Assembly: GCA_965261895.1 (NCBI GenBank)
Contig: OZ253480.1
Span: 2,727,788 to 2,791,787 of the forward strand
Reading direction: 5' to 3'
From: an uncultured Candidatus Binatia bacterium
GTDB taxonomy: Bacteria; Desulfobacterota; Binatia; UBA9968; JAJDTQ01
DNA: 64,000 nt
Shown: piece by piece, positions 15,101 through 46,669 of the stretch
Layout of the letters: each line of letters begins with the position of its first letter
How positions within the stretch are numbered: the stretch's first letter is position 1
Notes under the pieces: generated by a model
Seen by the model: the letters and a program-made list of their open reading frames with translations, nothing else
The model's database searches: none
Told to the model about the DNA's origin: nothing
Made by a program: the position numbers and the translations under genes

Positions 15101-15289
15101 CTAGTGTGGTGTGTCACAAATACGGTTATGAAGATGCGAGGGCATTTTGGTTGTCGGCAAGGCGCGATGACTTGTAGGGGCGACCGGCGGTCGCCCCCCA
15201 GTGGCGTGCACCACGCGAGGAAGAGCAACGCAGCCGACGGCCAAAAGGACCCGCAGATTCATAACCTTATTTGTGAGACACCACACTAG
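15101..15289. mobile_element. MITE copy A (189 bp; TIR CTAGTGTGGTGTGTCACAAATAC; core variant GGGCGACCGGCGGTCGCCC)
   Basis: Terminal inverted repeats ctagtgtggtg...caccacactag. It sits between the TctA-family gene and the DUF1989 gene. ORF-track entry 15104..15289 is its translation. Confidence 0.8.
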
Positions 15290-15304
15290 ATTCAGGGAGG
15301 GCCA

Positions 15305-15937
15305 ATGATGAGCACCGATGCAGACAAGATCCCCGGAAAAATCATCGACGACAGAATCATCGGACCAAGGGGGCATTGCGCCTGGGAAGTCCGGGAAGGA
15401 GAGGTGTTCCGCATCGTCGATATCGAGGGGCAGCAGGTGATGGATTTCCTGGCTTTCAATCTGAATGATTTGGATGAAAGACTCTCCCCGGAGAACACCT
15501 TGAACCTTAACAAGCAGATTTATCCGACGGTCGGCTACACCCTGCTCTCGGATAAAGCCGGCAAGCTCATGACGATTGTGGCGGATACTTGCGGCACCCA
15601 CGACATGCTCGCAGGGGCCTGCTCCAGCTATACCAACGAATACCGCTACGGTGTTCCGGGCGCTGCCAATTGCCGGGACAACTTCGTCGCCGCTCTCAAA
15701 CCGTGGGGACTTGGATGGAAAGACATACCCTACAACATGAACGTCTTTATGAATTGCCCCATCCAGGCTGACGGGACGTTCTCCATCGAACCACCGAAAT
15801 CCAAGGCGGGCGATTACATCGACTTCAGGGCCGACATGGATGTCCTGGTTGCCGGGTCGAACTGCCCCCAGGTGCTCAATCCCTGCAACTCCGGGGATTT
15901 GAAGCCGTTGCGGGTGGTCCACTACAGGCCCGGATAG
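15305..15937 (+). CDS. DUF1989 (urea-carboxylase-associated) family protein
   Basis: 210 aa with the family-typical C-terminal block (GDYIDFRADMDVLVAGSNCPQ). Confidence 0.6.
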   Translation: MMSTDADKIPGKIIDDRIIGPRGHCAWEVREGEVFRIVDIEGQQVMDFLAFNLNDLDERLSPENTLNLNKQIYPTVGYTLLSDKAGKLMTIVADTCGTHDMLAGACSSYTNEYRYGVPGAANCRDNFVAALKPWGLGWKDIPYNMNVFMNCPIQADGTFSIEPPKSKAGDYIDFRADMDVLVAGSNCPQVLNPCNSGDLKPLRVVHYRPG

Positions 15938-15980
15938 CAAGATCTTCTTCTGGTCCCAAACAAGGGGAGCTTCTAACCAT

Positions 15981-17072
15981 ATGAAGGGAGGCAACACCAT
16001 GAAGTGGGCGAGTAAGACCTTGATCCTGGCGGTTGCGGTCTGGGTATTTCAGGGCTCGATGCCGGGAACTCCGGGATCAGCCCAGGCCCAAACGAAACCG
16101 TACTATGAGGGCAAGACCATCCTGGTCATCGTCGGGTCCGGGCCCGGTGCGGGAAATGACATAAGGACGAGGTTGTTTGCCCGGCACGCGGCCAGGCATC
16201 TGCCCGGCAAGCCGCATCTCGTCGTGCAAAACAGGAGCGGGGGCGGTGGTCTCCGAGCGCGCAACTACCTCTACAACATCGCCAAACCGGATGGTTTCAC
16301 CATTGCGGAGATCATCAGAGGCACGGGTCTCCAGCACGCCATCAACGAACCGGCGGCGCGCTTCGAGGCCGACAAGTTCAACTGGATCGGAAACCTGACC
16401 ACGGCGACGGCGATCTGCACGGGTCGTATCGACCGGGTAGGGGCGAATCTCGAAGAGGCTATCAAGCGTTCCAAGAAGACCCAGTTGCGTAGCGGCGAAA
16501 CGAGCGGGAACAGCACCGGCGCGGCCATAGGGAAGATGCTGAAGAGGTTTACCGGCATCAACACGAGGCTGGTGGTGGGCTATCAGGGCGGCGCGCCCAT
16601 CGATCTGGCCATGGAGAAAGGGGAGGTGGACATGCGCTGCGGCTTCGTGTGGAGCTCGGCCAAGACCAGGAAACGGCACTGGTTCGCTCGCCTGGGAAGC
16701 AAGACGCCTTTCACCTCCGTGCTCGTCCAGGTCGCGACGAAGCGGCATCCCGAGCTGTCGGACATTCCAACACTGATAGAACTCGCACCGGACAAGGCAT
16801 CAAAAGATGTCGCGGAGATGCTGACGTTGACGTACCGGAATGCCTACCCGATGCTCGCCCCTCCGGGAACGCCCAAGCACGTGGTAAAGATTTTGCGGGA
16901 TGCCTTTTGGGCCACCGTCAATGACCCGCAGTACCTCGCGGACGCAAAGAAGATCGGCTATCTGGACGACGAACCGCTGAGGGGGCAGGAGGTGCAGGAA
17001 CTCATCGGAAAGATCGTGTCGGCGCCGGAGGAATCCAGAAAACTCATGGCCAAGATCATTGCCGCACAGTGA
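15981..17072 (+). CDS. TctC/Bug-family periplasmic substrate-binding protein
   Basis: 363 aa with a signal peptide and Bug-family fold blocks. Confidence 0.8.
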   Translation: MKGGNTMKWASKTLILAVAVWVFQGSMPGTPGSAQAQTKPYYEGKTILVIVGSGPGAGNDIRTRLFARHAARHLPGKPHLVVQNRSGGGGLRARNYLYNIAKPDGFTIAEIIRGTGLQHAINEPAARFEADKFNWIGNLTTATAICTGRIDRVGANLEEAIKRSKKTQLRSGETSGNSTGAAIGKMLKRFTGINTRLVVGYQGGAPIDLAMEKGEVDMRCGFVWSSAKTRKRHWFARLGSKTPFTSVLVQVATKRHPELSDIPTLIELAPDKASKDVAEMLTLTYRNAYPMLAPPGTPKHVVKILRDAFWATVNDPQYLADAKKIGYLDDEPLRGQEVQELIGKIVSAPEESRKLMAKIIAAQ

Positions 17073-17160
17073 TTTAGCACAGGGCGTCACGGGGGTCGCT
17101 GTCCGGAGTCTTCCCCCGTGACGAAGCCATGCGACAGGTCGAAAAGGAAGGCTGGGAAGG

Positions 17161-19816: not shown

Positions 19817-19837
19817 GGCTTGCCTCCTCTGTTCTCG

Positions 19838-19885
19838 ATTTGAGAACCACCTACACTAGTCATCGCGTCTTGCCGACAAAAGAGT
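19838..19885. repeat. Degenerate MITE remnant (TIR-like ...gagaaccacctacactag joined to internal segment tcatcgcgtcttgccgacaaaag)
   Basis: Resembles the right TIR plus an internal core-flank segment of the MITE family, in the divergent promoter region. Confidence 0.35.
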
Positions 19886-20097
19886 CCCGCGTAGCTTGCC
19901 ACGCGTTGATGTGGTACAGGCCACTACTCAGCCTTTGTGAAACCTTGGTCGTTATGACCGAGGACCGAAGAGAACCCAGTGGAGAGTATCTATAAGTATG
20001 TCCGACTGTCAAACACGCAAAACTCACGGTAGTGCCACACGATATTCTACAACGCGGAGGGCAAAATTCCCCGTCATCTGATTCATGAACGAACAGC

Positions 20098-22163: not shown

Positions 22164-22177
22164 AGACGGGAGTGCCG

Positions 22178-23663: not shown

Positions 23664-23876
23664 TCAAAGGGGTTCCGGAGAATCGTCGCCGGGCCGGACC
23701 AGGACGTATTCGCAACCCTGCTTGTCCGGCAACTCGCGGAGCTGCGCGATGATGCCTTCCGCTTCTTCCCGGGAGTAGTACAGCCCGACGGTGCTGACCT
23801 GGCCGTCGGGCCTGTGCTCATGCAGGTAGAACTTGTCCACGGCTACCGCCTCAGTACGTCGGAGTTTTGTACCCAA
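23664..23876 (-). CDS. Small hypothetical protein (70 aa)
   Basis: ORF only; it overlaps the 3' end of the neighbouring Fe-S protein gene in another frame. Confidence 0.3.
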   Translation of the reverse strand: MGTKLRRTEAVAVDKFYLHEHRPDGQVSTVGLYYSREEAEGIIAQLRELPDKQGCEYVLVRPGDDSPEPL

Positions 23877-24753: not shown

Positions 24754-24922
24754 GGAGAGCTCCTTTGCCAGGCAGGGACGCCGTTTCCAGGCGACCGCGT
24801 CCGGGTGTGTTCGACCTGCACACCCGTACCAGAACCGGCACCCGCATGGCAATACAGACGCGCCCCCGCCGCCTGCCGCGGCCGGTTGGGCAGCCGTCTC
24901 GTTCTCGTGTAATAATATCGTG

Positions 24923-25111
24923 CTAGTGTGGTGTCTCACAAATACGCTTATGAAGCTGCGAGGGCATTTTGGTTGTCGGCAAGGCGCGATGACTTGTAGG
25001 GGCGGGTTTCAAACCCGCCCGTGTGGCGGGCACCACGCGAGGAAGAGCAACGCAGCCGACGGCCAAAAGGACCCGCAGATTCGTAAGCGTATTTGTGAGA
25101 CACCACACTAG
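24923..25111. mobile_element. MITE copy B (189 bp; canonical TIR; core GGGCGGGTTTCAAACCCGCCC)
   Basis: ctagtgtggtgtctcacaaatacg ... cgtatttgtgagacaccacactag. Confidence 0.85.
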
Positions 25112-25293
25112 TGTCCTGTCCGGTTAATTCGCATGGTAAGATGCGCAGGATTTTTCGTCGTCGACAAGGCGCGATGACGTGTAGGGGCGACCGGCGGTCG
25201 CCCCCGTGGCGGGCACCACGCGAGGAAGAGCAACGCAGCCGACGAGAAAAAGACCAGCAGATTACCGTGCGAATTGACCGGACAGGACACTAG
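25108..25293. mobile_element. MITE copy C (186 bp; alternative TIR CTAGTGTCCTGTCCGGTTAATTCGCA; same core family), tandem to copy B and sharing one CTAG
   Basis: ctagtgtcctgtccggttaattcgca ... tgcgaattgaccggacaggacactag. The internal segment is near-identical to copy A. Confidence 0.8.
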
Positions 25294-28529: not shown

Positions 28530-28740
28530 CCCGCTTGGGTACGGGAATGGCACCGACACCCGCATTGTCATTCCCGCGCAAGCGGGAATCCAGGGGTGTG
28601 GAGGGGGCAAACGGGCATGCCTCCCCGCCCCACCCCTCCTGGATTCCCGCTTTCGCGGGAATGACGATTTCGGGGGTCGTTACCTCTCTCGGATGGCGTT
28701 TTGACACACCCTGTTTCGCGGGAATGACCCATGCCGGGCC
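28530..28740. repeat. Cluster of family-2 palindromic repeats (GTCATTCCCGCG-MAAG-CGGGAATCCAGG; ATTCCC-N8-GGGAAT type)
   Basis: Copies at 28567-28594 and 28638-28665, with a half copy at 28713-28728. An approximately 92-bp unit is nearly identical to 55132-55223. Confidence 0.75.
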
Positions 28741-33648: not shown

Positions 33649-33669
33649 GGGCGGGTTTGAAACCCGCCC
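33649..33669. repeat. Solo core palindrome GGGCGGGTTTGAAACCCGCCC
   Basis: Perfect 21-bp inverted repeat followed by CTACAC, 20 bp upstream of the GST start. Confidence 0.8.
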
Positions 33670-33689
33670 CTACACGGAGGTAACGCAAC

Positions 33690-36298: not shown

Positions 36299-36328
36299 AG
36301 GTCATTCTCCCCTGCGGGTGCGGGCACG

Positions 36329-36437
36329 GGCGGGTTTGAAACCCGCCCCTACAACAGCCCGACCGAACGAATGCGAAGGGACCTTCGCCCGACGAGCCGT
36401 TGCCGTCGGTGACCCCCTACAACAGCCCGACCGAACA
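36329..36437. repeat. Solo core palindrome (36329-36349) plus direct repeat CCCCTACAACAGCCCGACCGAAC (36347-36369 and 36415-36437) downstream of nuoN
   Basis: Seen directly; it lies in the region between convergent genes. Confidence 0.7.
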
Positions 36438-36469
36438 CCGAGGGACCACCGGAGTGGTTCCGGCCACGC

Positions 36470-37954
36470 CTATTTCATGAAGAATACCAGCGAGCCGCTG
36501 GTATAGTCGAGCAACGGCCCCCAATACACTCCCAGCACCACGGTCAGCACCATGAGGGCACCGAGCAGCGGCACCGCGCTCGCGGTCGCGGCCACTGGAC
36601 CGTCCTCGGGAGTGGGGGCGTCCAGGAACATGGTCCGGACGATCCGCACGTAATAGTACAGCGAGATGACCGTGTTGATGAGCGCCACCACCGCGAGGAC
36701 GTAGAACTCGGCATTGATGATGGCGGCGAAGAGCAGAAACTTGCCGATGAAACCCGCGAAGGGCGGCAGGCCAGTGAGGGAGAAGAGGAACGCCCCCATG
36801 CAGATGGCCGGGAACGCGGCGCCCCGCCAGGCCAGCCCGCGGTAGGCCTCCAAGTCCTCGCGGCCGGTGGCGTTGGCCACCACCATGACCACCAGGAAGG
36901 CGCCCAGGTTCATGATCAGGTAGACCACCACGTAGAAGAGCATGGCGGTCAGCCCGTCGTTGTTCAGCACCACCAGACCCATCATGATGTAGCCCGCGTG
37001 GGCGATGCCGGAATAGGCCAGCAGGCGCTTGACGTTGTTCTGGTTGAGGGCCGAGAGGTTGCCCCAGGTCATGGTGATGATGCTGAGGGCCACCAGCACA
37101 TCCGTCCACTGGAGCGCGGGAAACGCCTGGAACGTCCAGCTCCCATCCGGTCCGAGGGTGGACACCGCGGGGTAGAAGAAGCGGATCAGGATGGCGACGC
37201 CGGCAGCGTTGGAGGCCACCGAAAGAAATCCGGTGAAGGGCGTCGGCGCCCCCTGGTACACGTCCGGCGACCACATGTGGAACGGCGCGAAGGCCATCTT
37301 GTAGCCGAAGCCGGCCAGGATGAAAATGAAGGCGATGAACAACCCTGTCTGGTTGCCGCTCCCTTGAACCATGGCCGCGTTGATGGCCGCGTAGTCGAGG
37401 CTGCCGGCCATGCCGAACACCCAGCTCATGCCGTAGATCATGGTGCCGGACGCGACCCCGCCGTAGATGAGATACTTGAGCGCCGCCTCCGCCGAGCGCC
37501 GGTTGTGCGGCAGCATGCCGGTCAGGATGTAGGACGTCAGGCTCACCAGCTCCAGGCCCAGGTAGGCCATCAGCAGGTTGCTGGCCGAGGCCATGAAGAA
37601 CATCCCCAGTCCGCAGGTCAAGAGCACGATATAGTACTCGCCCAGGTGCACCTGCCGGACCTCGCCGGATCCGATGGACATCCAGATGGCCGCCAGCAAC
37701 GCTGCCAGCGTGATCACCTTGAAGAACAGGCTGAAGTTGTCCAACGCCACCATGCGGTGGAACAGCAACGCCGGAGGCGTCCCGTAGAGTTCCAGGGCAG
37801 CGATCAGGGCGACGGCGCATCCGGCCAGACCCACGTACGCCAGCAGCCGCTTGTTGGCCACCAACAGGTCCAGGATCGTCAGCAGGATGATTGTTCCCGC
37901 GAGGACGATTTCCGGATGGAACAGCTTGATGCTTGCGAGGTTACCGAGGTCCAT
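36470..37954 (-). CDS. nuoN: NADH-quinone oxidoreductase subunit N
   Basis: 494 aa polytopic protein with a NuoN/ND2 signature. Confidence 0.9.
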   Translation of the reverse strand: MDLGNLASIKLFHPEIVLAGTIILLTILDLLVANKRLLAYVGLAGCAVALIAALELYGTPPALLFHRMVALDNFSLFFKVITLAALLAAIWMSIGSGEVRQVHLGEYYIVLLTCGLGMFFMASASNLLMAYLGLELVSLTSYILTGMLPHNRRSAEAALKYLIYGGVASGTMIYGMSWVFGMAGSLDYAAINAAMVQGSGNQTGLFIAFIFILAGFGYKMAFAPFHMWSPDVYQGAPTPFTGFLSVASNAAGVAILIRFFYPAVSTLGPDGSWTFQAFPALQWTDVLVALSIITMTWGNLSALNQNNVKRLLAYSGIAHAGYIMMGLVVLNNDGLTAMLFYVVVYLIMNLGAFLVVMVVANATGREDLEAYRGLAWRGAAFPAICMGAFLFSLTGLPPFAGFIGKFLLFAAIINAEFYVLAVVALINTVISLYYYVRIVRTMFLDAPTPEDGPVAATASAVPLLGALMVLTVVLGVYWGPLLDYTSGSLVFFMK

Positions 37955-37960
37955 ATTGTG

Positions 37961-39481
37961 TTACGACAGGTGCGTGATGACCATCTGGTTGATGTTGTTG
38001 AGGGAGGCCTGGAGCAGGTCGAGCACCACCCGAGGATACACGCCGACGATCACCACGATCACTCCCAGCGGGAACAACGTAAAGATCTCGCGGCCGTTGA
38101 TCTCGGGCAACGACCGGTACTTCTCGTTGGGCGGGCCGAGATAGACCCGCTGCATCATCCACAGCATGTAGCCCGCGGTGATGACGATGCCCAGGGCCGC
38201 GATGACGGTCAGGGCATGGTACCTCGGCCAGGCGCCCAGCAGGACCAGCACCTCGGAGACGAAGCCCGACAGCCCCGGAAGTCCCATGGAGGCGAAAAAG
38301 GCCAGCGCCGTAAAGCCGGCGTACACCGGCATGATGCCGGCCAGGCCGCCGAAGCCGTTGATGTCACGATGATGGGCGCGGTCGTAGATCACCCCCACGA
38401 GCAGGAAGAGCATGGCGGTGATGCAGCCGTGATTGAACATCTGGAGCACCGCGCCGTTGATGCCCTGGGTGTTGAAGGCCGCCATCCCCAGCATGACGTA
38501 GCCCATGTGGCTCACGCTGGAGTAGGCCACCAGCTTCTTCATATCCGTCTGCGCCATGGCGCAAAGGCCGCCATAGACGATGTTCCACGTTCCCAGGGCC
38601 GCGAGGAAGTAGAAGGCCAGGTCTGCCGTGGCCACCGGCAGCATGGGATAGTTGATCCGCAGGATGCCGTAGGTGCCCATCTTCAGGAGGATGCCCGCCA
38701 GGATCACGGAGATGGCGGTAGGCGCCTCCACGTGGGCGTCGGGCAGCCAGGTGTGGAACGGAAAGGCCGGAATCTTGATGGCGAAGCCGATGAACAGCGC
38801 CATCCACACCACGTGCTGGAAGCCCCATCCCCACACGTTGAACGGCCACATGGCCAGCGGCGTGGTGCTGTAGAGGCTGCTCCGGTCCATCAGCTTGGTC
38901 ATGTCGAAGGTGTTGGGCTCGGAGTAGAAATGCAGCGCCAGGATGGCGACCAGCATCAGCACGCTCCCGAGCAGCGTGTAGAGGAAGAACTTGATGGCGG
39001 CGTATTCCTTGCGCGGGCCGCCCCAGATGCCGATGAGGAAATACATGGGAAGCAGCATGACTTCCCAGAACACGTAGAAGAGCACGAAATCCAGCGCCAC
39101 GAACACCCCGGTCATGCCGGTGTCCAGGAGCAGGAACAGCGCGAAATAACCCTTGACCCCCTTGTCGATACCCCAGGAAGCGAAGATACAGATAAACGAC
39201 AGCAGCGCCGTCAGCAGCAGCATGGAGACGCTGAGGCCGTCGACGCCGATGAAGTACTCGATGTTGAACGCGGGGATCCACTCTGCCCGCTCGACGAACT
39301 GCATGGAGGTGGTGGCGGTGTCGAAGTTGGCGTACAGCCAGACGCCCAGAATCAGCGGCGGCACCGTGGCTGCGGCTGACACCCAGCGAATGAGATCATG
39401 GCGTCCGCTGGGCAGGATCAACACGACCAGCATCCCGGCCAAGGGGAAGAAGACCATGTAGCTCAGCACATGTTCGGTCAT
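37961..39481 (-). CDS. nuoM: NADH-quinone oxidoreductase subunit M
   Basis: 506 aa with a NuoM/ND4 signature. Confidence 0.9.
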   Translation of the reverse strand: MTEHVLSYMVFFPLAGMLVVLILPSGRHDLIRWVSAAATVPPLILGVWLYANFDTATTSMQFVERAEWIPAFNIEYFIGVDGLSVSMLLLTALLSFICIFASWGIDKGVKGYFALFLLLDTGMTGVFVALDFVLFYVFWEVMLLPMYFLIGIWGGPRKEYAAIKFFLYTLLGSVLMLVAILALHFYSEPNTFDMTKLMDRSSLYSTTPLAMWPFNVWGWGFQHVVWMALFIGFAIKIPAFPFHTWLPDAHVEAPTAISVILAGILLKMGTYGILRINYPMLPVATADLAFYFLAALGTWNIVYGGLCAMAQTDMKKLVAYSSVSHMGYVMLGMAAFNTQGINGAVLQMFNHGCITAMLFLLVGVIYDRAHHRDINGFGGLAGIMPVYAGFTALAFFASMGLPGLSGFVSEVLVLLGAWPRYHALTVIAALGIVITAGYMLWMMQRVYLGPPNEKYRSLPEINGREIFTLFPLGVIVVIVGVYPRVVLDLLQASLNNINQMVITHLS

Positions 39482-39503
39482 TTTCGCATCTCTCCTCTTC
39501 GAC

Positions 39504-41537
39504 TCAGCTCCAGTAGCGCAGCTTGATGATCAGGACGGCGACCACGGCTCCCACCACCACGTAGAGGTAGCTGTTGATGTTCCCGGTCTGGACCCTTCGG
39601 AAGTTGTTGCCTACCGCGAAGGTCACGTTGGCAACGGCGTTGACCAGCATGTCGACGACGTACTGGTCGAACAGGCCGTTGAACCAGGAGACGACGATAG
39701 TGAGCTTGGCCGTTCCGTCCACGATGGTGTCGATGATGTAGCGATCGAACGCCGCTCCGATCCGCGCCAGCAACAGGGTGCCGCCGACGAAAACGAACTG
39801 GTAGACCTCGTCCACGTAGTACTTGTTGTAGAGCAGGCGGTATGCGAACCCACGGGCCTCCGGCGACTCGTCCCGGGATGGGGTCCGGACGTAGTACAGG
39901 AACCACGCCAGCGCGACGCCCGCGACGCCGGCGACGATGGCCACGCTCATGACCCCGACCTCTTCCATCATCGCGTGGTGCTCGACGTGGGGGACGTGGA
40001 TCACCGGATCGAGCCAGTGGTCGAGCATGCTGCCGCCCATGAACGCCGGCAGCCCGATATAACCCACGACCACGGAGCCGGCCGCGAGAATCCACAGCGG
40101 ATAGGTCATGATCTTCGGAGACTCGTGCAGGTGCTCCTGCACGTGGTGGTCGGCGCGGCATTCGCCGAAGAACACCATGAAGAACTGGCGGAACATGTAG
40201 AAGGCCGTGAGCCCCGCCACGAACACGGCTACCCCCCACAGCGCTACGTTGTGAGTGGCCCAGGCCTGCCACAGGATCGCATCCTTGGAGAAGAAGCCCG
40301 CCAGGAAAGGCGCTCCGGCGATGGCCAGGACGGCGATGGTGAAGGTCCAGAAGGTCGCCGGCATCACCTTCCTCAAGCCGCCCATCTGCCGCATGTCCTG
40401 CTCCCCCTGCATGGCGTGGATGATGCTTCCGGAGCCCAGGAAGAGGCAGGCCTTGAAAAACGCGTGGGTCAGCAGGTGGAAGACTCCGGCGGAGTAGGCG
40501 GCCACGCCCATGGCCAGGAACATGTAGCCGAGCTGGCTGATGGTGGAGTAGGCCAGGACGCGCTTGATGTCGGTCTGGGTCACCGCGACGGTGGCGGCGA
40601 AGAACGCAGTGGCGGCGCCGACCACGGCGATGATCCCCAGGGTCACGGGAGCCGCGGAGAAGAGCGGGTTCAGCCGCGCGATCATGTAGACCCCGGCCGT
40701 CACCATGGTGGCGGCGTGGATCAGCGCACTCACGGGGGTCGGGCCCTGCATGGCGTCCGGCAGCCAGACGTAGAGCGGGATCTGCGCCGACTTGCCGGCG
40801 GCCCCGATGAACATCAGGATCGTCACCAGCGTGACCACGCCGATGCCCCAAAGCTCCATGTTGGCCAACAGCCCCACGTGCTCCTGGATCTCACGGAACG
40901 CCAGCGTTCCCTGGCCGTGCTCCGTCAGGCTCCAGAAAAGCAGGAAGATGCCCAGGACGAAGCCGAAGTCGCCGACGCGGTTGACGATGAAGGCCTTGTT
41001 GCCGGCGCGGGTGTTGGTGTGGTCCGTGTACCAGAACCCGATGAGCGCCCAAGAGCAGAGCCCCACGCCCTCCCAGCCCACGAACATCAGCAGCAGGTTG
41101 TCGCCGGTCACCAGCAGCAGCATGGAGAAGGTGAACAGGTTCAGGTAGGCGAAGTAGCGCCACAAGGACCGGTCCTCGTGCATGTAACCGATGGAGTAGA
41201 AGTGGATCAGTCCGCCGATGCCGCTCACCACCAGGATCATGATGGCCGACAGCGGATCCACCCAGAAGGCCACGTCCACGTTGAAGGAGCCCATGGGGAT
41301 CCAACTGTAGAAGTGGTCGATGAGAAACCGATCCTTGGCCGGCAGGGACAGCAACCGGCCAAAGGCCCACAGCGAGAACAGAAACGACAGGGTCACCGGG
41401 GCGCAGGCGATAACGGCCACCATCCGCTTGCCCGCGCGCTCCTGTATGCGGGCCCCCAGCAGACCGTTCACCGCGGCGCCCAGCAGCGGGAACAACACGA
41501 TCCAACGCAGAAAATCGGTTTGAACGGGGTGATCCAT
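39504..41537 (-). CDS. nuoL: NADH-quinone oxidoreductase subunit L
   Basis: 677 aa with a NuoL/ND5 signature including the C-terminal long helix. Confidence 0.9.
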   Translation of the reverse strand: MDHPVQTDFLRWIVLFPLLGAAVNGLLGARIQERAGKRMVAVIACAPVTLSFLFSLWAFGRLLSLPAKDRFLIDHFYSWIPMGSFNVDVAFWVDPLSAIMILVVSGIGGLIHFYSIGYMHEDRSLWRYFAYLNLFTFSMLLLVTGDNLLLMFVGWEGVGLCSWALIGFWYTDHTNTRAGNKAFIVNRVGDFGFVLGIFLLFWSLTEHGQGTLAFREIQEHVGLLANMELWGIGVVTLVTILMFIGAAGKSAQIPLYVWLPDAMQGPTPVSALIHAATMVTAGVYMIARLNPLFSAAPVTLGIIAVVGAATAFFAATVAVTQTDIKRVLAYSTISQLGYMFLAMGVAAYSAGVFHLLTHAFFKACLFLGSGSIIHAMQGEQDMRQMGGLRKVMPATFWTFTIAVLAIAGAPFLAGFFSKDAILWQAWATHNVALWGVAVFVAGLTAFYMFRQFFMVFFGECRADHHVQEHLHESPKIMTYPLWILAAGSVVVGYIGLPAFMGGSMLDHWLDPVIHVPHVEHHAMMEEVGVMSVAIVAGVAGVALAWFLYYVRTPSRDESPEARGFAYRLLYNKYYVDEVYQFVFVGGTLLLARIGAAFDRYIIDTIVDGTAKLTIVVSWFNGLFDQYVVDMLVNAVANVTFAVGNNFRRVQTGNINSYLYVVVGAVVAVLIIKLRYWS

Positions 41538-41558
41538 GGCGAGGCAGTTCGTGAAAGG

Positions 41559-41891
41559 CTAGTCCCTGAGCGTCTCGGTGGCCTCGACGTCGATGGTGGC
41601 GAAGAGCTGGTAGATGGAGAGCACGATGGCCAGGCCGATGGCGGCTTCGGAGGCCGCCAGCATGATGATGAAGACCGTGTAGATCTGCCCATCCACGTTC
41701 CCGGTGCTGAAGTGCGAGAACGCGACGTAGTTCAGTCCCGCCGAATTGAGGATGAGCTCGACACCCAGAAGAATGCTGATGGCATTGCGCCGGGTAAGAA
41801 CGATGTAGATGCCCAGCGCGAACAGGATGCCCGCGACCACCAGGTAGTGCCTCAGTCCGACGTCCGTCAACAGTGCAACGTATTCAGCCAT
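41559..41891 (-). CDS. nuoK: NADH-quinone oxidoreductase subunit K
   Basis: 110 aa with a NuoK/ND4L signature. Confidence 0.85.
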   Translation of the reverse strand: MAEYVALLTDVGLRHYLVVAGILFALGIYIVLTRRNAISILLGVELILNSAGLNYVAFSHFSTGNVDGQIYTVFIIMLAASEAAIGLAIVLSIYQLFATIDVEATETLRD

Positions 41892-41906
41892 CTCGCGAAA
41901 CTCTCG

Positions 41907-42425
41907 CTATTCCTTGATTTCCTTGCGCGACAGCGTGATGGCGCCGATGAGCGCCACCAACAGCACCACCGCGGCGATCTGGAACGGCAGCAGGTAGTCG
42001 CCGAGGAAGAGGTTGCCGATGGCCGCCGTGGTGGGCGCGAACGCCACTTCCTTGACCTGCACCCAGCCGGTCTCGCCGATGGCGTAGACCAGGATGCCAA
42101 GGAAGACCGCCACTGCCGCAAGCGCGGGAATGCGGCCCACCGTGCGGTTGGTGATCTCGATTTCGCTGATCCGATGGGTCAACATGACCGCGAACAGGAT
42201 CAGTACGAGAATGCCGCCGACGTAGATCAATACCTGCACCGCCGCCACGAAGTCCGCGCCGAGAAACACGTAGAGGCCGGCCACCCCGCCGAACGTACCC
42301 AGCAGCGAGAAGGCCGAATGCACGATGTTCCGGGAGAACGCGACGATGCAAGCGGACCCTATCACGACGAGGGAAACCAGATAGAAGATCAGGACGCCTA
42401 TGGAAATCTCCATGATCAAAACCAC
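41907..42425 (-). CDS. nuoJ: NADH-quinone oxidoreductase subunit J
   Basis: 172 aa with a NuoJ/ND6 signature. Confidence 0.85.
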   Translation of the reverse strand: MVLIMEISIGVLIFYLVSLVVIGSACIVAFSRNIVHSAFSLLGTFGGVAGLYVFLGADFVAAVQVLIYVGGILVLILFAVMLTHRISEIEITNRTVGRIPALAAVAVFLGILVYAIGETGWVQVKEVAFAPTTAAIGNLFLGDYLLPFQIAAVVLLVALIGAITLSRKEIKE

Positions 42426-42531
42426 CCTTTTACTTAGAAACCGGGAGGGTTGCGCCGTTTACGGTCGGCGGTGGGGCCAGGAGCGTGTCCGACGAAAAAG
42501 TCTCGTGAATCCTGCCATGGCCGGCGGGCCG

Positions 42532-43071
42532 TCATTTCTCCGGTTCGGCCACCTCGTCCAGGTACCTCAGTCCGATATCCACCTTCTGAACCATTCGGGG
42601 TTCCGTTTCCCCACCCTTCTTCGGCTTGTAGAGAGGCACTGTCTCGGTAACGAAATGCCGCACCAGACCGGCGGGATTGTTGCAGGCGCCCTCGAACTCC
42701 TGAGTGTGACGAATGGAGCCCGTGGGGCAGGCCTCCATGCACAGCCCACAATACATGCACTTGCAAATGTCGATGTCAAATTGGGTGAAGTCGCGCTGGT
42801 TCGTCTCCGCGTTCTTCTCGATGCCGATGGCGATGCAGTTGATCGGGCAGACCCTCTCGCACGCCAGGCAGCCCGTGCAGATGTCCATGTCGACCTCGAG
42901 GATGCCGCGGTAACGCAAGGGCAGGGTCGCCTGCACCTGTTGCGCGATGCGGTCGGGATACTGGATCGTCGACGGCTTGCGGACGAAGTGCGAGAAGGTG
43001 ATGGACATGCCTTCGAAGATGCTCGTCACCGTGTCTCGCACGTTCTGAAAGTATTCGATGACTCCATTCAT
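42532..43071 (-). CDS. nuoI: NADH-quinone oxidoreductase subunit I (2x[4Fe-4S])
   Basis: ORF 42532..43206. Probable start at 43071 (MNGVIEYFQ). Two CxxCxxCxxxCP motifs. Confidence 0.88.
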   Translation of the reverse strand: MNGVIEYFQNVRDTVTSIFEGMSITFSHFVRKPSTIQYPDRIAQQVQATLPLRYRGILEVDMDICTGCLACERVCPINCIAIGIEKNAETNQRDFTQFDIDICKCMYCGLCMEACPTGSIRHTQEFEGACNNPAGLVRHFVTETVPLYKPKKGGETEPRMVQKVDIGLRYLDEVAEPEK

Positions 43072-43099
43072 GGACGTTTCCCCGGACGATCGTTGGACC

Positions 43100-44311
43100 C
43101 TACACGTAGGGCTTGAGATACAGGGTCGGACGCGAGTGAATGATCTGAAAGACCACCCGCCAAAAAAAATAAAGGACCACGAGACCCGAAAACGCCAACG
43201 TGGCAACGGTCAGCGCGGTATTCCCTTCGGGCCAGAGCACCAACAGCGAAATCGTTCCGAACATGCAGACGAACGCGATGGGGACCATGTATTTCCAGCA
43301 CATGGCCATGAGCTGGTCCACCCGCACCCGCGGCAGGGTGCCCCGTACCCACATGGCGACGAAGGCCCACATGTACGCCTTGATGAAGAAGACCGTGAAC
43401 TCCAGCACACCCTTGAGCAGCGGGTGGTCCGCCATGACCACGCCGAAGATCGCCGCCGGTATCTGCCAGCCGCCGAGAAACAGGGTGGCCGCGATGGCGC
43501 CGATGACGTACAGATTGCCCCACTCCGCAAAGAAGAAGAATAGGAAGCGCATGCCGCTGTACTCGGTCACGTAGCCGGCTACCAACTCCGATTCGGCTTC
43601 GGGAATGTCGAACGGCGTCCGGTTACCCTCGGCCAGAGCCGCGGTGAAGAAGAGGAAGAAGGCCACCAGGGTGAAGGGGTTGTAGAAGATGAACCAGTTC
43701 CAGGGGGCCCATCCCTGGGCCTCGATGATCCCCTGCATGCTGAGGGTGCCCGACAGGAAGATCACCGTCAGCACCGCGAGCCCCGCGGGGATCTCGTAAC
43801 TGACGATCTGCGCAGCCGAGCGCATCCCCCCCAACAGCGACCATTTGTTGTTGGACGACCAGCCCGCCATCAGGATACCCACCACCGGCAGAGAGGTAAT
43901 GGCCAGGAGGTAAAGGATGCCGATGTTGAGGTCCGCGGCGATCAGCCAACTGCCGAACGGTATCACGACGAAGGCGCCGAGAAACCCCGAGAAGACGATA
44001 TAAGGGGCCAGCAGGAAGAGTTTCCGGTCGGCCGCAGTCGGGATGATGTCCTCTTTCTGGATGTTCTTGACCCCGTCGGCGAGCCACTGAAGCACTCCCT
44101 GCGGGCCGACCCGGTTGGGACCGACCCGGGACTGCATGCGCGCCCACACGCGCCGCTCCAGCCAGCTCGTCACGCCGGCGAGCGGCGCCACGAAGGCCGA
44201 CAGCACGACGACGGCCACCAGCACCACCGCAAGGGCATAGCCCAGGGCCGCCGGAACGGCCCCCGGCAGCAACCCCTGAATCAAGTCTTGAACGGTGAAT
44301 TCCATCGGCAC
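43100..44311 (-). CDS. nuoH: NADH-quinone oxidoreductase subunit H
   Basis: 403 aa with a NuoH/ND1 signature. GTG at 44311 or ATG at 44305. Confidence 0.9.
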   Translation of the reverse strand: MPMEFTVQDLIQGLLPGAVPAALGYALAVVLVAVVVLSAFVAPLAGVTSWLERRVWARMQSRVGPNRVGPQGVLQWLADGVKNIQKEDIIPTAADRKLFLLAPYIVFSGFLGAFVVIPFGSWLIAADLNIGILYLLAITSLPVVGILMAGWSSNNKWSLLGGMRSAAQIVSYEIPAGLAVLTVIFLSGTLSMQGIIEAQGWAPWNWFIFYNPFTLVAFFLFFTAALAEGNRTPFDIPEAESELVAGYVTEYSGMRFLFFFFAEWGNLYVIGAIAATLFLGGWQIPAAIFGVVMADHPLLKGVLEFTVFFIKAYMWAFVAMWVRGTLPRVRVDQLMAMCWKYMVPIAFVCMFGTISLLVLWPEGNTALTVATLAFSGLVVLYFFWRVVFQIIHSRPTLYLKPYV

Positions 44312-44314
44312 AGC

Positions 44315-44504
44315 CTCAGTGTCGTGTCCCGGAAATTGGCATGATCATTTGCTTGTCCTTTTTACCGTCGGCTACGTTGCTCTTCCTCACGTGGTGGCCG
44401 CCACACGGGCGGGTTTGAAACCCGCCCCTACAAGTCATCGCGCCTTGCCGACGACAAAAATTCCTGCGCAACTAATCATGCCAATTTCCGGGACACGACA
44501 CTAG
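44315..44504. mobile_element. MITE copy D (third TIR variant CAGTGTCGTGTCCCGGAAATTGGCATGAT; core GGGCGGGTTTGAAACCCGCCC) between nuoH and nuoD
   Basis: cagtgtcgtgtcccggaaattggcatgat ... atcatgccaatttccgggacacgacactag. The terminal CTAG (44501-44504) provides the nuoD TAG stop. Confidence 0.8.
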
Positions 44505-45637
44505 CGATCGATCTCGGGAGCGTCCACATCGAGGCTCGCGATCAAGGCGATCAGATCGGCGACCATGATTCCCGGGCTGATCTTGTCGATGATGCTCATG
44601 GCGGTGAAGGAACCGGTGCGGATCCTCACCCGGTAAGGATACTCGCTGCCGTCGCTGACCACGTAATAGCCCATGTCTCCGCGCGGCGCTTCGACGCGCA
44701 CGTAGGTTTCGCCTGCCGGCGGCTTGAACTTGCGCGCGACCTTGGCGACGGCCGGCCCGTCGGGTATCTTGTCGAGGCACTGGCGGAGAATCTTGCAACT
44801 CTCCATCAATTCCTCGATCCGGACCTGGTAGCGGTCGTAGGAGTCGCCCACGGTCCCCCGCACGCCCCGGCCCACCGGCACCTCGAAGTCGAGCTCGGGA
44901 TAGACCGAATAGGGAATGTCCCGGCGGATGTCCCACTGGATGCCGCACGCACGCAGGTTCGGACCCACCAGGTTGTACTGGAGAGCATCCTCCTTCGAGA
45001 TCACCGCGACGTTGGCCAGCCGCTCGATGAAGATCTTGTTGTACGACAAGAGCCGGTTGTATTCGTCGACGATGAGCTCGAAGTGGTCCAGGAACGCCGT
45101 AATCCGGCCGCACGTCTCCGGCTTGATGTCGTAGCCGACGCCGCCGATCCGGAGGTAGTTGTAGGTGAGGCGGGCGCCGCAGATCTCCTCCATGAGATCG
45201 TTGATGCTTTCCCGCTCCCGGAGCGCGTGCAGAAAAGGAGTGATGGCGCCGATATCCTGCCCGAAGGTGCCCACGGCGATGAGGTGGCTGGCGACGCGGT
45301 TGAGCTCGCAGGCGATCACGCGGCAGTACTCGGCGCGGGGCGGCACCTCGATGTTGCCCAGCCGCTCCGCCGCCATGCAGAAGCCCTGATTGGCGAACAT
45401 GGCGGCGAGATAGTCGGCCCGGTCGGTGTACGGGACGTAACCGTGCCACGTGCACTTCTCGCCGATCTTCTCGATGGAGCGGTGCAGGTAGCCGACGTCC
45501 GGGATGGCTTCGTTGATGACCTCGCCGTCCGTCTTGACCACGAACCGCAGCACGCCGTGGGTGCTCGGATGCTGCGGCCCCACGTTCAGCGTCATGTCTT
45601 CCGTGTGCAAGCCGGTCCTGGCGGTAGCCTCGCTCAT
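44501..45637 (-). CDS. nuoD: NADH-quinone oxidoreductase subunit D
   Basis: 378 aa with a NuoD/49-kDa signature. Confidence 0.9.
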
Positions 45638-45681
45638 GATATCATTCCTTCGTCAACCGACCCGATTGCGATGGTGGACGC

Positions 45682-45702
45682 GGGCGGATTTGAAATCCGC
45701 CC
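45682..45702. repeat. Degenerate solo core palindrome GGGCGGATTTGAAATCCGCCC
   Basis: A variant of the core with MITE-like flanks, next to MITE copy E. Confidence 0.6.
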
Positions 45703-45739
45703 CGACAAATCCATCGCGGCACACTGCCGACAAAAGGGT

Positions 45740-45928
45740 CTAGTGTGGTGTCTCACAAATACGCTTACGAATCTGCGGGTCCTTTTGGCCGTCGGCTGCG
45801 TTGCTCTTCCTCGCGTGGTGCACGCCACTGAGGGGCGACCGCAGGTCGCCCCTACAAGTCATCGCGCCTTGCCGACGACCAAAATGCCCTCGCATCTTCA
45901 TAACCGTATTTGTGAGACACCACACTAG
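45740..45928. mobile_element. MITE copy E (189 bp; canonical TIR; core variant GGGCGACCGCAGGTCGCCC) between nuoD and nuoC
   Basis: ctagtgtggtgtctcacaaatacgc ... gtatttgtgagacaccacactag. The terminal CTAG provides the nuoC TAG stop (45925-45927). Confidence 0.85.
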
Positions 45929-46431
45929 CGCATGTTCTCCGGGACCAACGGCTCGCGCTCGGTGCTGATGCCGTCGTACTCTTCCTGCTCCACGAAGTCC
46001 TTGCGCAGCGGATAACCCACCCAGTCCTCGGGCAACAGTATCCGCCGGAGGTCCGAATGCCCTTCGAAGATGACCCCGAAGAGATCGAACACTTCCCGCT
46101 CGAACCAGTTGGCGACCTTCCAGATGTCTTCCACCGTCGCGATCCGCGGCGCTTCCCGGTCCAAGTCGACCTTGATCACGGTCTGTTGCCGGGACTCGTA
46201 CGAGTACAGATGGTAGACGACCTGTATGATCTCCTCCTTCGGAAAATCCACGGCCGTCAGATCGGAGAGCACGTCAAATTTCAGCACGTCGTCGTCGCGC
46301 AGCGCCAGGAGCAACTCCTTGAGGCTGGCCGCCTTGACCTTGAAGAAAGGGTCCAGAACCTGCTCGTCAAGGTCGTCCACGCCCCCGGGACAAAGCTCCC
46401 TGGCGCGCTCGTATATCTCTTTTGCGGTCAT
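45925..46431 (-). CDS. nuoC: NADH-quinone oxidoreductase subunit C
   Basis: ORF 45925..46569. Probable ATG at 46431 (MTAKEIYERAREL); the upstream part of the ORF translates the MITE. NuoC/30-kDa signature. Confidence 0.85.
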   Translation of the reverse strand: MTAKEIYERARELCPGGVDDLDEQVLDPFFKVKAASLKELLLALRDDDVLKFDVLSDLTAVDFPKEEIIQVVYHLYSYESRQQTVIKVDLDREAPRIATVEDIWKVANWFEREVFDLFGVIFEGHSDLRRILLPEDWVGYPLRKDFVEQEEYDGISTEREPLVPENMR

Positions 46432-46480
46432 GTCGTCGCTATCTGCCCGGAAATCCTGCCCGTCCGAGCCGGCTGATGTC

Positions 46481-46669
46481 CTAGTGTGGTGTCTCACAAA
46501 TACGCTTACGAATCTGCGGGTCCTTTTGGCCGTCGGCTGCGTTGCTCTTCCTCGCGTGGTAACCGCCACACGGGCGGGTTTGAAACCCGCCCCTACTCGT
46601 CATCGCGCCTTGCCGACAACCAAAATGCCCTCGCATCTTCATAACCGTATTTGTGAGACACCACACTAG
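46481..46669. mobile_element. MITE copy F (189 bp; canonical TIR; core GGGCGGGTTTGAAACCCGCCC) between nuoC and nuoA
   Basis: ctagtgtggtgtctcacaaatacgc ... gtatttgtgagacaccacactag. The terminal CTAG provides the nuoA TAG stop (46666-46668). Confidence 0.85.

What the first reader, a model, noticed from the sequence alone, without database searches (positions are those of the whole stretch)
15101..46669. Modular ~189-bp MITE family: one conserved core, three interchangeable terminal-inverted-repeat arm types
Six full copies and at least two remnants lie in this 64-kb window. Full copies are at 15101-15289, 24923-25111, 25108-25293, 44315-44504, 45740-45928 and 46481-46669. Remnants are at 19838-19885 and 45682-45702. 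Each copy is bounded by CTAG. Each carries long TIRs around a near-identical ~100-bp core, and that core contains the 21-bp palindrome GGGCGGGTTTSAAACCCGCCC or the compensated variant GGGCGACCGSMGGTCGCCC. Three different arm sequences share the same core: TAGTGTGGTGTCTCACAAATAC (copies A, B, E and F), TAGTGTCCTGTCCGGTTAATTCGCA (copy C) and CAGTGTCGTGTCCCGGAAATTGGCATGAT (copy D). That points to a modular, recombining non-autonomous element rather than a single decaying IS. There is no transposase ORF. Every copy is intergenic, and its orientation follows the transcription direction of the host operon (plus in the tct operon, reversed in the minus-strand nuo operon). The elements would therefore be co-transcribed as long hairpin RNAs. 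The six-frame ORFs beginning MWCLTNT... are translations of these elements.
Basis: seen in the sequence. Interest (0 to 1): 0.72.

Follow-up and report, generated by a model that had tools for sequence, protein, structure and literature searches.

The report
IS630-type MITE family with nested REP hairpin
The repeats are real, recently mobile miniature transposons of uncultured Binatia bacteria that borrow an IS630-family transposase; the odd part is a near-invariant middle between many different, perfectly matched end sequences.

Summary
Six full copies lie at the stated coordinates, and each folds into a 32-bp stem around a shared core.

They are MITEs. A related strain has a clean empty site (gaagaaCTAGgacatc) where the window has copy F, and an extra copy where the window has none. 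The duplication is TA, inside a preferred CTAG target. The termini (CTAGTGTnnnGTC..AAAT) match full-length IS630-family elements, one of which abuts a copy in a Binatia genome.

A genome scan found more than 94 stretches, with true copies in 13 assemblies, nearly all Binatia.

- The ancestral element is 165 bp. The central "core palindrome" is a separate GTAG-headed REP-like hairpin nested at its apex, and the same hairpin occurs alone seven times in the window.
- There are at least 24 arm types, not three. Arms are about 62% identical between types and the core about 95%.
- Copies B and C sit in a divergent promoter region, not in the tct operon. Orientation follows transcription only as a bias (25:9).

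This is an undescribed member of a known kind. Why the core is conserved, and why orientation is biased, remain open.

The parts
15101..15289 (+). MITE copy A. Arm type 1, nested hairpin hp2. Lies between tctA and a DUF1989 gene, both on the plus strand.
24923..25111 (+). MITE copy B. Arm type 1, nested hairpin hp1. Lies in the divergent region between a minus-strand Fer4 gene and plus-strand tmk. Its left arm supplies a -35-like TTGTGA facing the Fer4 gene.
25108..25293 (+). MITE copy C. Arm type 2, hp2, 186 bp. In tandem with B, sharing the CTAG at 25108-25111. Ends 8 nt before the tmk ATG.
44315..44504 (-). MITE copy D. Arm type 3, hp1. Lies between nuoD and nuoH. The TAG at 44501-44503 (minus strand) is the nuoD stop codon. 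The far end is CTCAG rather than CTAG.
45740..45928 (-). MITE copy E. Arm type 1, hp2 variant. Lies between nuoC and nuoD. Its terminal TAG is the nuoC stop codon.
46481..46669 (-). MITE copy F. Arm type 1, hp1. Lies between nuoA and nuoC. Its terminal TAG is the nuoA stop codon. The orthologous site in strain L002 is empty.
19830..19926 (-). Decayed half copy: left arm of a fourth type (TAGTGGCCTGTACCAC...), left core and a degenerate hairpin.
45664..45739 (-). Armless remnant (inner arm, left core and a degenerate hp1) abutting copy E. Strain L002 carries the product of recombination between this remnant and E.
15174..15196 (+). Nested GTAG-headed hairpin hp2 in copy A (GTAGGGGCGACCGGCGGTCGCCC).
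24996..25020 (+). Nested GTAG-headed hairpin hp1 in copy B (GTAGGGGCGGGTTTCAAACCCGCCC).
25181..25203 (+). Nested hp2 in copy C.
44407..44431 (-). Nested hp1 in copy D.
45833..45855 (-). Nested hp2 variant in copy E.
46572..46596 (-). Nested hp1 in copy F.
3173..3197 (-). Solo GTAG REP-like hairpin, same sequence as hp1, not inside a MITE.
5957..5981 (+). Solo GTAG REP-like hairpin. Part of a 76-nt inverted pair with the one at 8492.
8492..8516 (-). Solo GTAG REP-like hairpin.
33649..33673 (-). Solo GTAG REP-like hairpin.
36328..36352 (-). Solo GTAG REP-like hairpin.
48331..48355 (+). Solo GTAG REP-like hairpin.
52468..52492 (-). Solo GTAG REP-like hairpin. Its flank CCGCCACAC matches the MITE core flank.

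Best explanation
These are copies of a non-autonomous miniature transposon (MITE) family of Binatia (candidate phylum Binatota). The family is mobilised in trans by IS630-family DDE transposases.

The ancestral element is 165 bp. It has two near-perfectly complementary 32-33-bp arms that begin (C)TAGTGTnnnGTC..AAAT, like the ends of IS630-family insertion sequences. Inside the arms are about 25 bp of imperfectly paired, conserved inner arm. At the centre is an asymmetric, almost invariant stretch: GGCAAGGCGCGATGACGAGCA-GTGGCnnnnACCAC-GCGAGGAAGAGCAACGCAGCC.

The element inserts at a TA and duplicates it, with a strong preference for CTAG. CTAG is about 11-fold depleted in this genome. The usable sites are therefore mostly C-TAG stop codons, which the element's own end regenerates, and the ends of resident copies, which produces tandem arrays.

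In the window's lineage a second small repeat has been nested at the apex of the fold-back: a GTAG-headed REP-like hairpin of 21-24 nt net. That gives the 186-190-bp copies seen here.

Shown: mobility, TA duplication, CTAG preference, termini like IS630-family ends, the nested hairpin, many arm types around one core, and an orientation bias relative to flanking genes.

Inferred:
- Arm types track the binding preferences of different resident IS630 lineages. Both ends are made identical because two optimal ends transpose best.
- The core is kept either by a cis requirement for spread or by selection against harmful copies.
- Copies inside operons are transcribed into long hairpin RNAs that RNase III would be expected to cut.
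For: Mobility and duplication. Strain contig L002 is 95% identical in DNA to the window and encodes an identical NuoD. It has gaagaaCTAGgacatc where the window has gaagaaCTAG[185 bp]CTAGgacatc, which is copy F. L002 also has an extra arm-1 copy inserted in the CTAG at the end of the D-type copy. The outermost C and G of the termini vary (CTAA, CTAC, TTAG, ATAG), so they are flank. The duplication is therefore TA at NTAN.

Parent. L093 (OZ220712.1) holds a 1155-bp element bounded by CTAGTGTACTGTCCCACAAATAAC and its inverted partner CTAGTGTCGCGTCCCGCAAATAT. It encodes a 365-aa protein that scores 254.8 bits against NF033545 'IS630 family transposase' (cut-off 100) and matches DDE_3. It directly abuts a MITE copy at a shared CTAG. 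Eighty relatives from metagenomes were fetched; the 39 whose ends I printed, and 68 full-length copies (1147-1187 bp) then extracted, have the same kind of termini. MITE arms match such ends at 18-23 of 27 variable positions.

Spread. True copies come from 13 assemblies, all labelled Binatia, 'Thermodesulfobacteriota' or 'Deltaproteobacteria' except one labelled Syntrophobacterales.

Anatomy. Of 87 extracted copies, 52 are exactly 165 bp and 57 are 164-166 bp. Twenty are 185-190 bp and carry a hairpin between GATGAC(GAG) and GTGGCG, in three versions. Four are 219-224 bp and carry another small repeat. Arms have 0-4 mismatches in 33 nt, against 5-15 for the two ends of full-length elements. 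Twenty-four of the 32 arm pairs show changes on both sides, with 92-100% of cells paired at positions 2-32. There are 24 arm clusters. Between clusters, arm identity is 0.62 and identity of the unforced core is 0.95.

CTAG occurs 19 times against 217 expected, and ten of the 19 are ends of full copies. The terminal TAG is the stop codon of a flanking ORF in 32 of 79 copies.

Orientation. In co-directional gene contexts the count is 25 against 9 (p = 0.009). At stop codons it is 25 against 7. There is no link to local GC skew (38 of 79).

Precedents. RUP and IS630-Spn1 with TA targets (PMC2229807). GTAG REPs inserted within palindromes (PMC3733652, section 7). RNase III cleavage of Correia-containing transcripts at the TIRs (PMC10969869).
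Against: No IS630-family transposase lies in the window or in the 21 kb of L001 and L002 that I could read. A cognate transposase in the source genome is therefore assumed, not shown.

The MITE interior is not clearly derived from any sampled element. A profile of IS630 3' coding ends found nothing in the core. The best pairwise similarities are only marginal: a 12-nt match CGCGATGACGAG at the start codon of L129-type elements, and a score of 18.5 against a null of 13.2 +/- 1.4 with a maximum of 17.

A trans-mobilised MITE is normally expected to conserve its ends and let its interior drift. Here it is the reverse, and my explanation for that is inference.

The genome scan required an exact 19-mer in the core. 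That inflates core conservation near that site, although the 40 nt next to it were free to vary.

The gene calls behind the orientation statistics are a GC3 heuristic with known false positives.
Confidence: 0.85

Rival explanations
1. The conserved core is a functional, strand-specific RNA or DNA module that rides on the MITE. It could buffer or tune expression of flanking genes when co-transcribed. Host-level selection, not only transposition, would then explain its near-invariance and the orientation bias. This rival is compatible with the MITE explanation and adds to it.
For: The core is about 95% identical across 24 arm types, while the arms are about 62% identical. Within the core, variation is concentrated in the loop of the small hairpin GTGGC-nnnn-ACCAC.

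Orientation is biased relative to transcription (25:9 and 25:7) and not relative to GC skew. The target is palindromic and the arms are symmetric, so only the core can tell the two orientations apart.

Copies sit 8-50 nt from downstream start codons.
Against: No Rfam family matches. The best hit is a generic long-hairpin match to MIR1858, at 42.8 bits against a gathering score of 137.

No covariation is available inside the core, because it hardly varies. Decayed copies with degraded cores persist, so not every copy is under selection.

No promoter-like site lies in the copies within the nuo operon. The orientation statistics rest on heuristic gene calls.
Confidence: 0.25
2. One reading: a modular element in which one core is repeatedly recombined with unrelated pairs of terminal inverted repeats.
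For: Many arm types share one core. The boundary between the variable part (positions 8-33) and the conserved part (from 34) is sharp on both sides. The same hairpin versions occur with different arms, and different hairpins with the same arms. One orthologous site holds different arm types in two genomes (L058 and L078).
Against: The arms are not unrelated. All fit CTAGTGTnnnGTCnnnnnAAT and resemble IS630-family ends, so divergence from one ancestor explains them as well as swapping does.

Swapping needs both arms to be replaced by the same sequence, and no hybrid with mismatched arms was seen. Only 1 of 57 canonical copies has more than 6 mismatches.

The L058/L078 case is equally explained by independent insertions at a rare CTAG.
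Confidence: 0.3
3. The elements move as single-stranded DNA through an IS200/IS605-type (Y1 HUH) enzyme. They would insert 3' of a CTAG and end in CTAG, like palindrome-associated transposable elements, rather than through a DDE transposase.
For: The filled and empty sites are formally compatible with insertion of 185 nt ending in CTAG next to a CTAG. The whole element is a strong single-strand hairpin. GTAG-type REPs, which are linked to Y1 transposases, are present in the same genome.
Against: The termini match IS630-family ends over about 24 nt. The flanking bases vary as expected for TA duplication at NTAN: when one flank is A the element is still bounded by TA. Orientation shows no strand bias relative to GC skew. 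IS200/IS605 elements lack long terminal inverted repeats (established knowledge of that family).
Confidence: 0.04
4. The copies are a family of immobile structured non-coding RNA genes, or the remnant of a protein-coding mini-gene (MWCLTNT... / MTSSGGHHARKSNAADG...).
For: Very stable folds. An ATG preceded by AAGG opens a 32-codon frame that ends exactly at the terminal TAG. It is intact in 53 of 77 copies, and most hairpin insertions are in frame: 17 of 20 add 21 or 24 nt.
Against: Presence/absence differences with target duplication show the elements move.

Both strands are equally open, with a median of 54 codons. Copy C shifts frame through the core. The C-terminal half of the peptide changes with arm type.

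A protein search found only 20 tiny unannotated ORFs and no longer parent. Rfam has no match.
Confidence: 0.03

Closest known systems
RUP (repeat unit of pneumococcus) with IS630-Spn1, Streptococcus pneumoniae
   Same: A small non-coding element whose ends resemble those of an IS630-family insertion sequence. It inserts at TA, is multi-copy and intergenic, appears to have moved recently, and tends to land next to or inside other mobile elements (PMC2229807).
   Different: RUP is 107 bp, and only 9 bp of its ends are contiguously paired. The present element is 165 bp with 32-bp near-perfect arms, at least 24 arm types around one invariant core, a strong CTAG preference and a nested REP. The two share no sequence similarity.
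Correia / NEMIS elements of Neisseria
   Same: An element of 100-200 bp with terminal inverted repeats of about 24-26 bp and TA at the termini. It is often inside operons and close to start codons, is transcribed into hairpins that RNase III cleaves at the TIRs, and can contribute promoter elements (PMC10969869, PMC2229807).
   Different: No parent transposase is known for Correia. Here an IS630-family parent kind is identified. Correia keeps its ends conserved and varies its interior, which is the opposite of what is seen here. RNase III processing is not tested here.
IS630 family insertion sequences (IS630 / Tc1 / mariner superfamily)
   Same: The termini CTAGTGT...; TA duplication with a preference for CTAG (for IS630 itself this is established knowledge: Tenzen et al. 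1990, recalled from memory and not re-read here); and a transposase ORF that ends in the terminal TAG.
   Different: The MITE has no transposase. Its two ends are almost identical (0-4 mismatches in 33 nt), whereas the autonomous elements have 5-15. The interior is not clearly derived from the sampled elements.
GTAG-tagged REP sequences (REP/RAYT system)
   Same: The nested and solo hairpins are G+C-rich palindromes of about 21 nt, preceded by an unpaired GTAG, multi-copy and extragenic. Insertion of GTAG REPs inside larger palindromes has been described for Anabaena variabilis and Thermomicrobium roseum (PMC3733652, section 7).
   Different: No RAYT gene was seen. The hairpins are mostly single, not paired. 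The host palindrome here is itself an active MITE, so the REP is carried around by it.

Membership tests
MITE (non-autonomous TIR transposon) | Small size and no transposase gene | tested here: met
   165-190 bp. Only spurious short ORFs that are open on both strands.
MITE (non-autonomous TIR transposon) | Terminal inverted repeats | tested here: met
   32-33-nt arms with 0-4 mismatches in 55 of 57 canonical copies.
MITE (non-autonomous TIR transposon) | Target-site duplication shown by an empty site | tested here: met
   L002 has the empty site gaagaaCTAGgacatc; the window has the filled site. Variable outer bases show that the duplication is TA.
MITE (non-autonomous TIR transposon) | Multi-copy, with insertion differences between related genomes | tested here: met
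   More than 94 stretches; true copies in 13 assemblies. Copy F is absent from L002, and L002 has an extra copy.
MITE (non-autonomous TIR transposon) | An autonomous element with matching ends | tested here: met
   The 1155-bp element in L093 and 68 full-length relatives share CTAGTGTnnnGTCCCnnAAATA ends.
Mobilised by an IS630-family transposase | TA duplication at NTAN or CTAG targets | tested here: met
   77 of 87 left ends and 64 of 87 right ends are CTAG. The exceptions keep TA.
Mobilised by an IS630-family transposase | The transposase belongs to the IS630 family | tested here: met
   NF033545, 254.8 bits against a cut-off of 100; DDE_3 and HTH domains.
Mobilised by an IS630-family transposase | A cognate transposase is present in the same genome as the window | not tested
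   None in the 64-kb window. The rest of the source genome could not be read. Co-occurrence is shown only for OZ220712.1 (L093).
Mobilised by an IS630-family transposase | The transposase binds and moves the element | not testable with these tools
   Needs a binding or transposition assay.
GTAG-type REP | Unpaired 5' GTAG followed by a G+C-rich palindrome of 20-40 nt | tested here: met
   GTAG+GGGCGGGTTTSAAACCCGCCC and GTAG+GGGCGACCnGCGGTCGCCC. The definition is from PMC3733652.
GTAG-type REP | High-copy extragenic distribution | tested here: inconclusive
   13 in 64 kb (7 solo, 6 nested), all intergenic. No genome-wide count.
GTAG-type REP | An associated RAYT (Y1 transposase) gene | not tested
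   The 20 window ORFs scanned against Pfam include none. The whole genome was not available.
Correia-like RNase III-processed operon MITE | Co-transcription and cleavage at the paired TIRs | not testable with these tools
   Only the position inside the nuo operon and the 32-bp perfect RNA stem are shown.
Known structured RNA family (Rfam 15) | A match at or above the family's gathering score | tested here: not met
   No match at the gathering threshold. The best sub-threshold hit is MIR1858, at 42.8 bits against 137.

The most novel reading that the evidence does not exclude
The roughly 75-nt invariant core is a strand-specific functional module, most likely an RNA element. It would make a long intercistronic hairpin tolerable or useful when it is transcribed with the flanking genes. 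It would have been carried through Binatia genomes on a succession of IS630-type arms, as a mobile cis-regulatory cassette whose delivery ends evolve fast while its payload stays fixed.
Probability: 0.2. Interest if true: 0.7.

Novelty: new member of a known kind. Interest (0 to 1): 0.42.

Why it matters
The result gives a concrete, checkable description of an active MITE family in Binatota, a phylum with no cultured members. My one literature search for this (Binatia plus 'miniature inverted-repeat') found no paper.

It has practical uses. The copies explain the spurious 'MWCLTNT...' and 'MTSSGGHHARKSNAADG...' ORFs and probably some assembly breaks. They differ between strains that are 95% identical, so they can serve as strain markers.

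It also shows three layers of selfish DNA together: an IS630-family element, its MITE, and a REP-like hairpin nested at the MITE's apex.

The biologically interesting residue is that the usual MITE pattern is reversed, with hypervariable but perfectly matched ends and an invariant middle, alongside a transcription-linked orientation bias. If the core proves to be required in cis or to act as RNA, the family would be a good system for asking what internal sequences do for MITE success.

Tried and rejected
1. Rfam, at the gathering threshold over the whole window and at a permissive E-value on single copies. Nothing meaningful was found.

2. The rve-family insertion sequence next to nuoA in L002 as the parent. 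Its ends are unrelated.

3. Full-length elements bounded by the MITE arms within the fetched loci. None were found; the only long 'pairs' are neighbouring MITE copies.

4. Homology of the core to the 3' coding end of IS630 transposase genes. My first reading by eye, in reverse orientation, was not supported by a profile search. A later pairwise scan gave only marginal hits, in the forward orientation.

5. Coding potential of the ATG-to-terminal-TAG frame. Rejected.

6. Replication-strand bias as the cause of the orientation bias. No association with local GC skew.

7. Presence on viral contigs or plasmids. None.

8. Hammerhead-like motifs in the core, checked by eye. The order of helices does not fit, and Rfam is silent.

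9. Promoter and terminator scans. There is only one hybrid promoter-like site, at the left end of B, and weak terminator-like hits.

Full report
**1. The observation**

Automatic repeat detection recovers them as direct and inverted repeats of 186-190 nt that are 73-97% alike. Aligned in one orientation they share an almost invariant interior and three clearly different arm sequences.

Each copy folds into a perfect stem of about 32 bp closed by a partly paired interior. RNA energies are -108 to -123 kcal/mol, with z-scores of -12.7 to -14.2 and no shuffle out of 200 folding as well. The same holds for single-stranded DNA.

Small corrections:
- Copy D ends in CTCAG at one side.
- The remnants are longer than stated: about 19830-19926 and about 45664-45739.
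- The 'core palindrome' also occurs alone at seven other places in the window, always with a GTAG head.

**2. They move**

A look-up of the window's NuoD protein returned two long contigs from other metagenome assemblies. L001 carries the same three nuo-operon copies with the same flanks as the window. L002 is 95% identical to the window in DNA. Three differences stand out.
- Between nuoA and nuoC, L002 reads gaagaaCTAGgacatc. The window reads gaagaaCTAG-[185 bp]-CTAGgacatc. L002 is therefore a clean empty site for copy F.
- Downstream of nuoD, L002 has an additional arm-1 copy inserted precisely in the CTAG at the end of the D-type copy.
- Downstream of nuoC, L002 has a half copy that looks like the product of recombination between copy E and the adjacent remnant.

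A more distant genome, 88-89% identical, has a copy at another nuo intergenic site where the window has none.

**3. Target and duplication**

Across 87 extracted copies the ends are usually CTAG...CTAG. The outermost C and G, however, vary (CTAA, CTAC, TTAG, ATAG) while TA stays. The duplication is therefore TA, at NTAN with a strong CTAG preference.

CTAG occurs 19 times in the window against 217 expected from base composition. Ten of the 19 are ends of full copies, and one more lies in remnant R1. This scarcity explains two things.
- Tandem arrays form because each insertion creates a new CTAG. Examples are B-C here and the tandem in L002, L013 and L059.
- The terminal TAG doubles as the stop codon of a flanking ORF in 32 of 79 copies, including nuoA, nuoC and nuoD here. 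The element regenerates the stop codon, so the upstream protein is unchanged.

**4. The parent kind**

In L093 (OZ220712.1) a MITE copy abuts, at a shared CTAG, a 1155-bp element. That element has ends CTAGTGTACTGTCCCACAAATAAC and CTAGTGTCGCGTCCCGCAAATAT, and a 365-aa ORF whose stop is the terminal TAG. The protein is an IS630-family transposase: NF033545 at 254.8 bits against a cut-off of 100, plus DDE_3 and HTH domains.

I fetched 80 relatives from metagenomes, at 62-79% identity. The 39 whose ends I printed, and the 68 full-length copies of 1147-1187 bp I then extracted, have ends of the same kind. MITE arm types match one or another of these ends at 18-23 of 27 variable positions.

TA duplication at CTAG is what is known for IS630 itself. 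That is established knowledge recalled from memory. RUP with IS630-Spn1 is the bacterial precedent for a MITE of this family (PMC2229807). The window itself holds no such transposase.

**5. Distribution**

True copies come from 13 assemblies, all labelled Binatia, 'Thermodesulfobacteriota' or 'Deltaproteobacteria' except one labelled Syntrophobacterales. A few other hits are chance matches in coding DNA. Binatia is a class of the candidate phylum Binatota.

Nothing was found on viral contigs or plasmids. My one literature search for this (Binatia plus 'miniature inverted-repeat') returned no paper.

**6. What the wider sample changes**

(a) The ancestral element is 165 bp and has no central palindrome. 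Its core reads ...GATGACGAGCAGTGGCGGGCACCAC... (52 of 87 copies are exactly 165 bp). The window's copies belong to a 185-190-bp class of 20 copies. In these, a GTAG-headed hairpin replaces 2-7 nt between GATGAC(GAG) and GTGGCG, in three versions: hp1, hp2 and an hp3 not present in the window.

Because the same hairpin is scattered alone through the window, the simplest reading is that a REP-like element has been nested at the apex of the fold-back. GTAG REPs inserted inside larger palindromes are on record (PMC3733652, section 7). Another small repeat, CCTTCGACTCCGCTTCGCTACGCTCAGGA, is solo at window 6760-6874 and is likewise found inside some copies elsewhere.

(b) There are many arm types. 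The 57 canonical copies form 24 clusters at 85% identity. Between clusters the arms are 62% identical, the inner arms 83%, and the part of the core that my search pattern did not force 95%. Variation within the core is concentrated in the loop of a small hairpin.

Yet within each copy the arms pair almost perfectly, with 0-4 mismatches in 33 nt. Twenty-four of the 32 pairs show changes on both sides. The autonomous relatives have 5-15 mismatches between their own two ends.

(c) Decayed copies with degraded cores exist, so conservation is not universal.

**7. Orientation**

A, D, E and F follow the flanking genes. B and C lie between a minus-strand Fer4 gene and plus-strand tmk.

With heuristic gene calls over all loci, copies between co-directional genes are co-oriented 25 times against 9 (p = 0.009). 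At stop codons the count is 25 against 7. There is no association with local GC skew (38 of 79). The target is palindromic and the arms symmetric, so only the asymmetric core can distinguish the two orientations. This points to an effect at the level of transcription or RNA, but it does not identify that effect.

**8. Mechanism**

Shown: a TA-duplicating, CTAG-preferring, non-autonomous element with IS630-type ends that has moved since two 95%-identical strains diverged.

Inferred:
- Mobilisation in trans by resident IS630-family transposases.
- Arms that track different transposase lineages and are kept identical at both ends because two good ends transpose better. This is known for mariner elements, from memory.
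- A core retained because it is needed in cis, or because copies lacking it are more harmful.
- For D, E and F, transcription within the nuo mRNA into 32-bp double-stranded stems that RNase III should cut, as shown for Correia elements (PMC10969869).

One hybrid promoter-like site uses a -35-like TTGTGA in B's arm together with a flanking TATTAT, facing the Fer4 gene. This is a consensus match only.

**9. Origin of the interior**

The left half resembles the 5' end of L129-type elements, up to and including the start codon: TIR, then CTGCGG, then CGCGATGACGAG. The core weakly resembles the 3' coding end of L149/L166-type elements, with a score of 18.5 against a null of 13.2 +/- 1.4 and a maximum of 17. 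A profile of 3' coding ends finds nothing.

If the similarity is real, the element is an old internal-deletion derivative, and its ATG-to-terminal-TAG frame is a relic of the transposase ORF. That frame is not evidence of coding:
- both strands are equally open;
- copy C shifts frame;
- the protein database holds only 20 tiny unannotated ORFs like it.

**10. Verdict**

This is a real, active and apparently undescribed MITE family of the IS630 kind, with a nested REP-like hairpin in the window's lineage. The central palindrome, the number and nature of the arm types, and the orientation rule need revising. It is ordinary in kind. It is unusual in that the ends vary while the middle does not, and that is the part worth an experiment.

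Noticed in passing
window 3173-3197, 5957-5981, 8492-8516, 33649-33673, 36328-36352, 48331-48355, 52468-52492: Seven solo copies of a GTAG-headed hairpin (GTAGGGGCGGGTTTSAAACCCGCCC), all intergenic. This is the same sequence that is nested in MITE copies B, D and F. The two at 5957 and 8492 are part of a 76-nt inverted pair (5938-6013 and 8460-8535, 86% complementary) that brackets an aldolase gene and an AMP-binding enzyme gene. None of the 20 window ORFs I scanned against Pfam is a RAYT.
   Followed up: partly
window 6760-6874: A 49-nt perfect inverted repeat with a 17-nt spacer (CTCCGCTCCGCTTCCTTCGACTCCGCTTCGCTACGCTCAGGACGAACGG). A closely related sequence is inserted inside MITE copies in other Binatia genomes (L012, L013, L017, L038, L055, L085, L087, L099). 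It is therefore a second small repeat family that nests in the MITE.
   Followed up: partly
window 28622-28728 and 55118-55224; also 54983-55022: A direct repeat of 107 nt (93% identical) whose start recurs a third time (CCTCCCCGCCCCACCCCTCCTGGATTCCCGCTTTCGCGGG). It is another dispersed repeat, unrelated to the MITE.
   Followed up: no
whole window: CTAG is about 11-fold under-represented: 19 occurrences against 217 expected from base composition at 63% G+C. Most of the CTAG sites that exist belong to the MITE copies.
   Followed up: yes
L002 7300-8930, just upstream of nuoA; corresponds to window about 47050-47180: The related strain carries an insertion encoding a 421-aa protein with a faint rve (integrase-core) match. 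It is absent from the window and from L001, and its ends are unrelated to the MITE.
   Followed up: partly
window 36400-47050 (nuo operon, minus strand); gene list for L001: The operon encodes NuoA, C, D, H, I, J, K, L, M and N. No NuoB lies between NuoA and NuoC, and there is no NuoE, F or G. Three of its intergenic gaps hold MITE copies.
   Followed up: no
window 24912-24941 (minus strand): A promoter-like site made of a -35-like TTGTGA inside the left arm of copy B and a TATTAT in the flank, with an 18-nt spacer. It points towards the Fer4 gene at 23851-24939. This is a consensus match only.
   Followed up: no
L013 (just after its copy), L063 (just after its copy): Collapsed elements such as CTAGTGTCAGGACACTAG and CTAGTGCCCTGTCCTCCGCATCTTGTCATGCGAATGAACCGGACAGGACGCTAG. 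Only the bases of the two arms remain, as if the hairpin interior had been deleted. They could be deletion products or excision footprints.
   Followed up: no
L058 578-741 and L078 3582-3746: The same orthologous gene end (left flanks 90% identical) is occupied by copies with different arm types (arms 52% identical) in two genomes. Either the rare CTAG was hit twice independently or the arms were replaced in place.
   Followed up: partly
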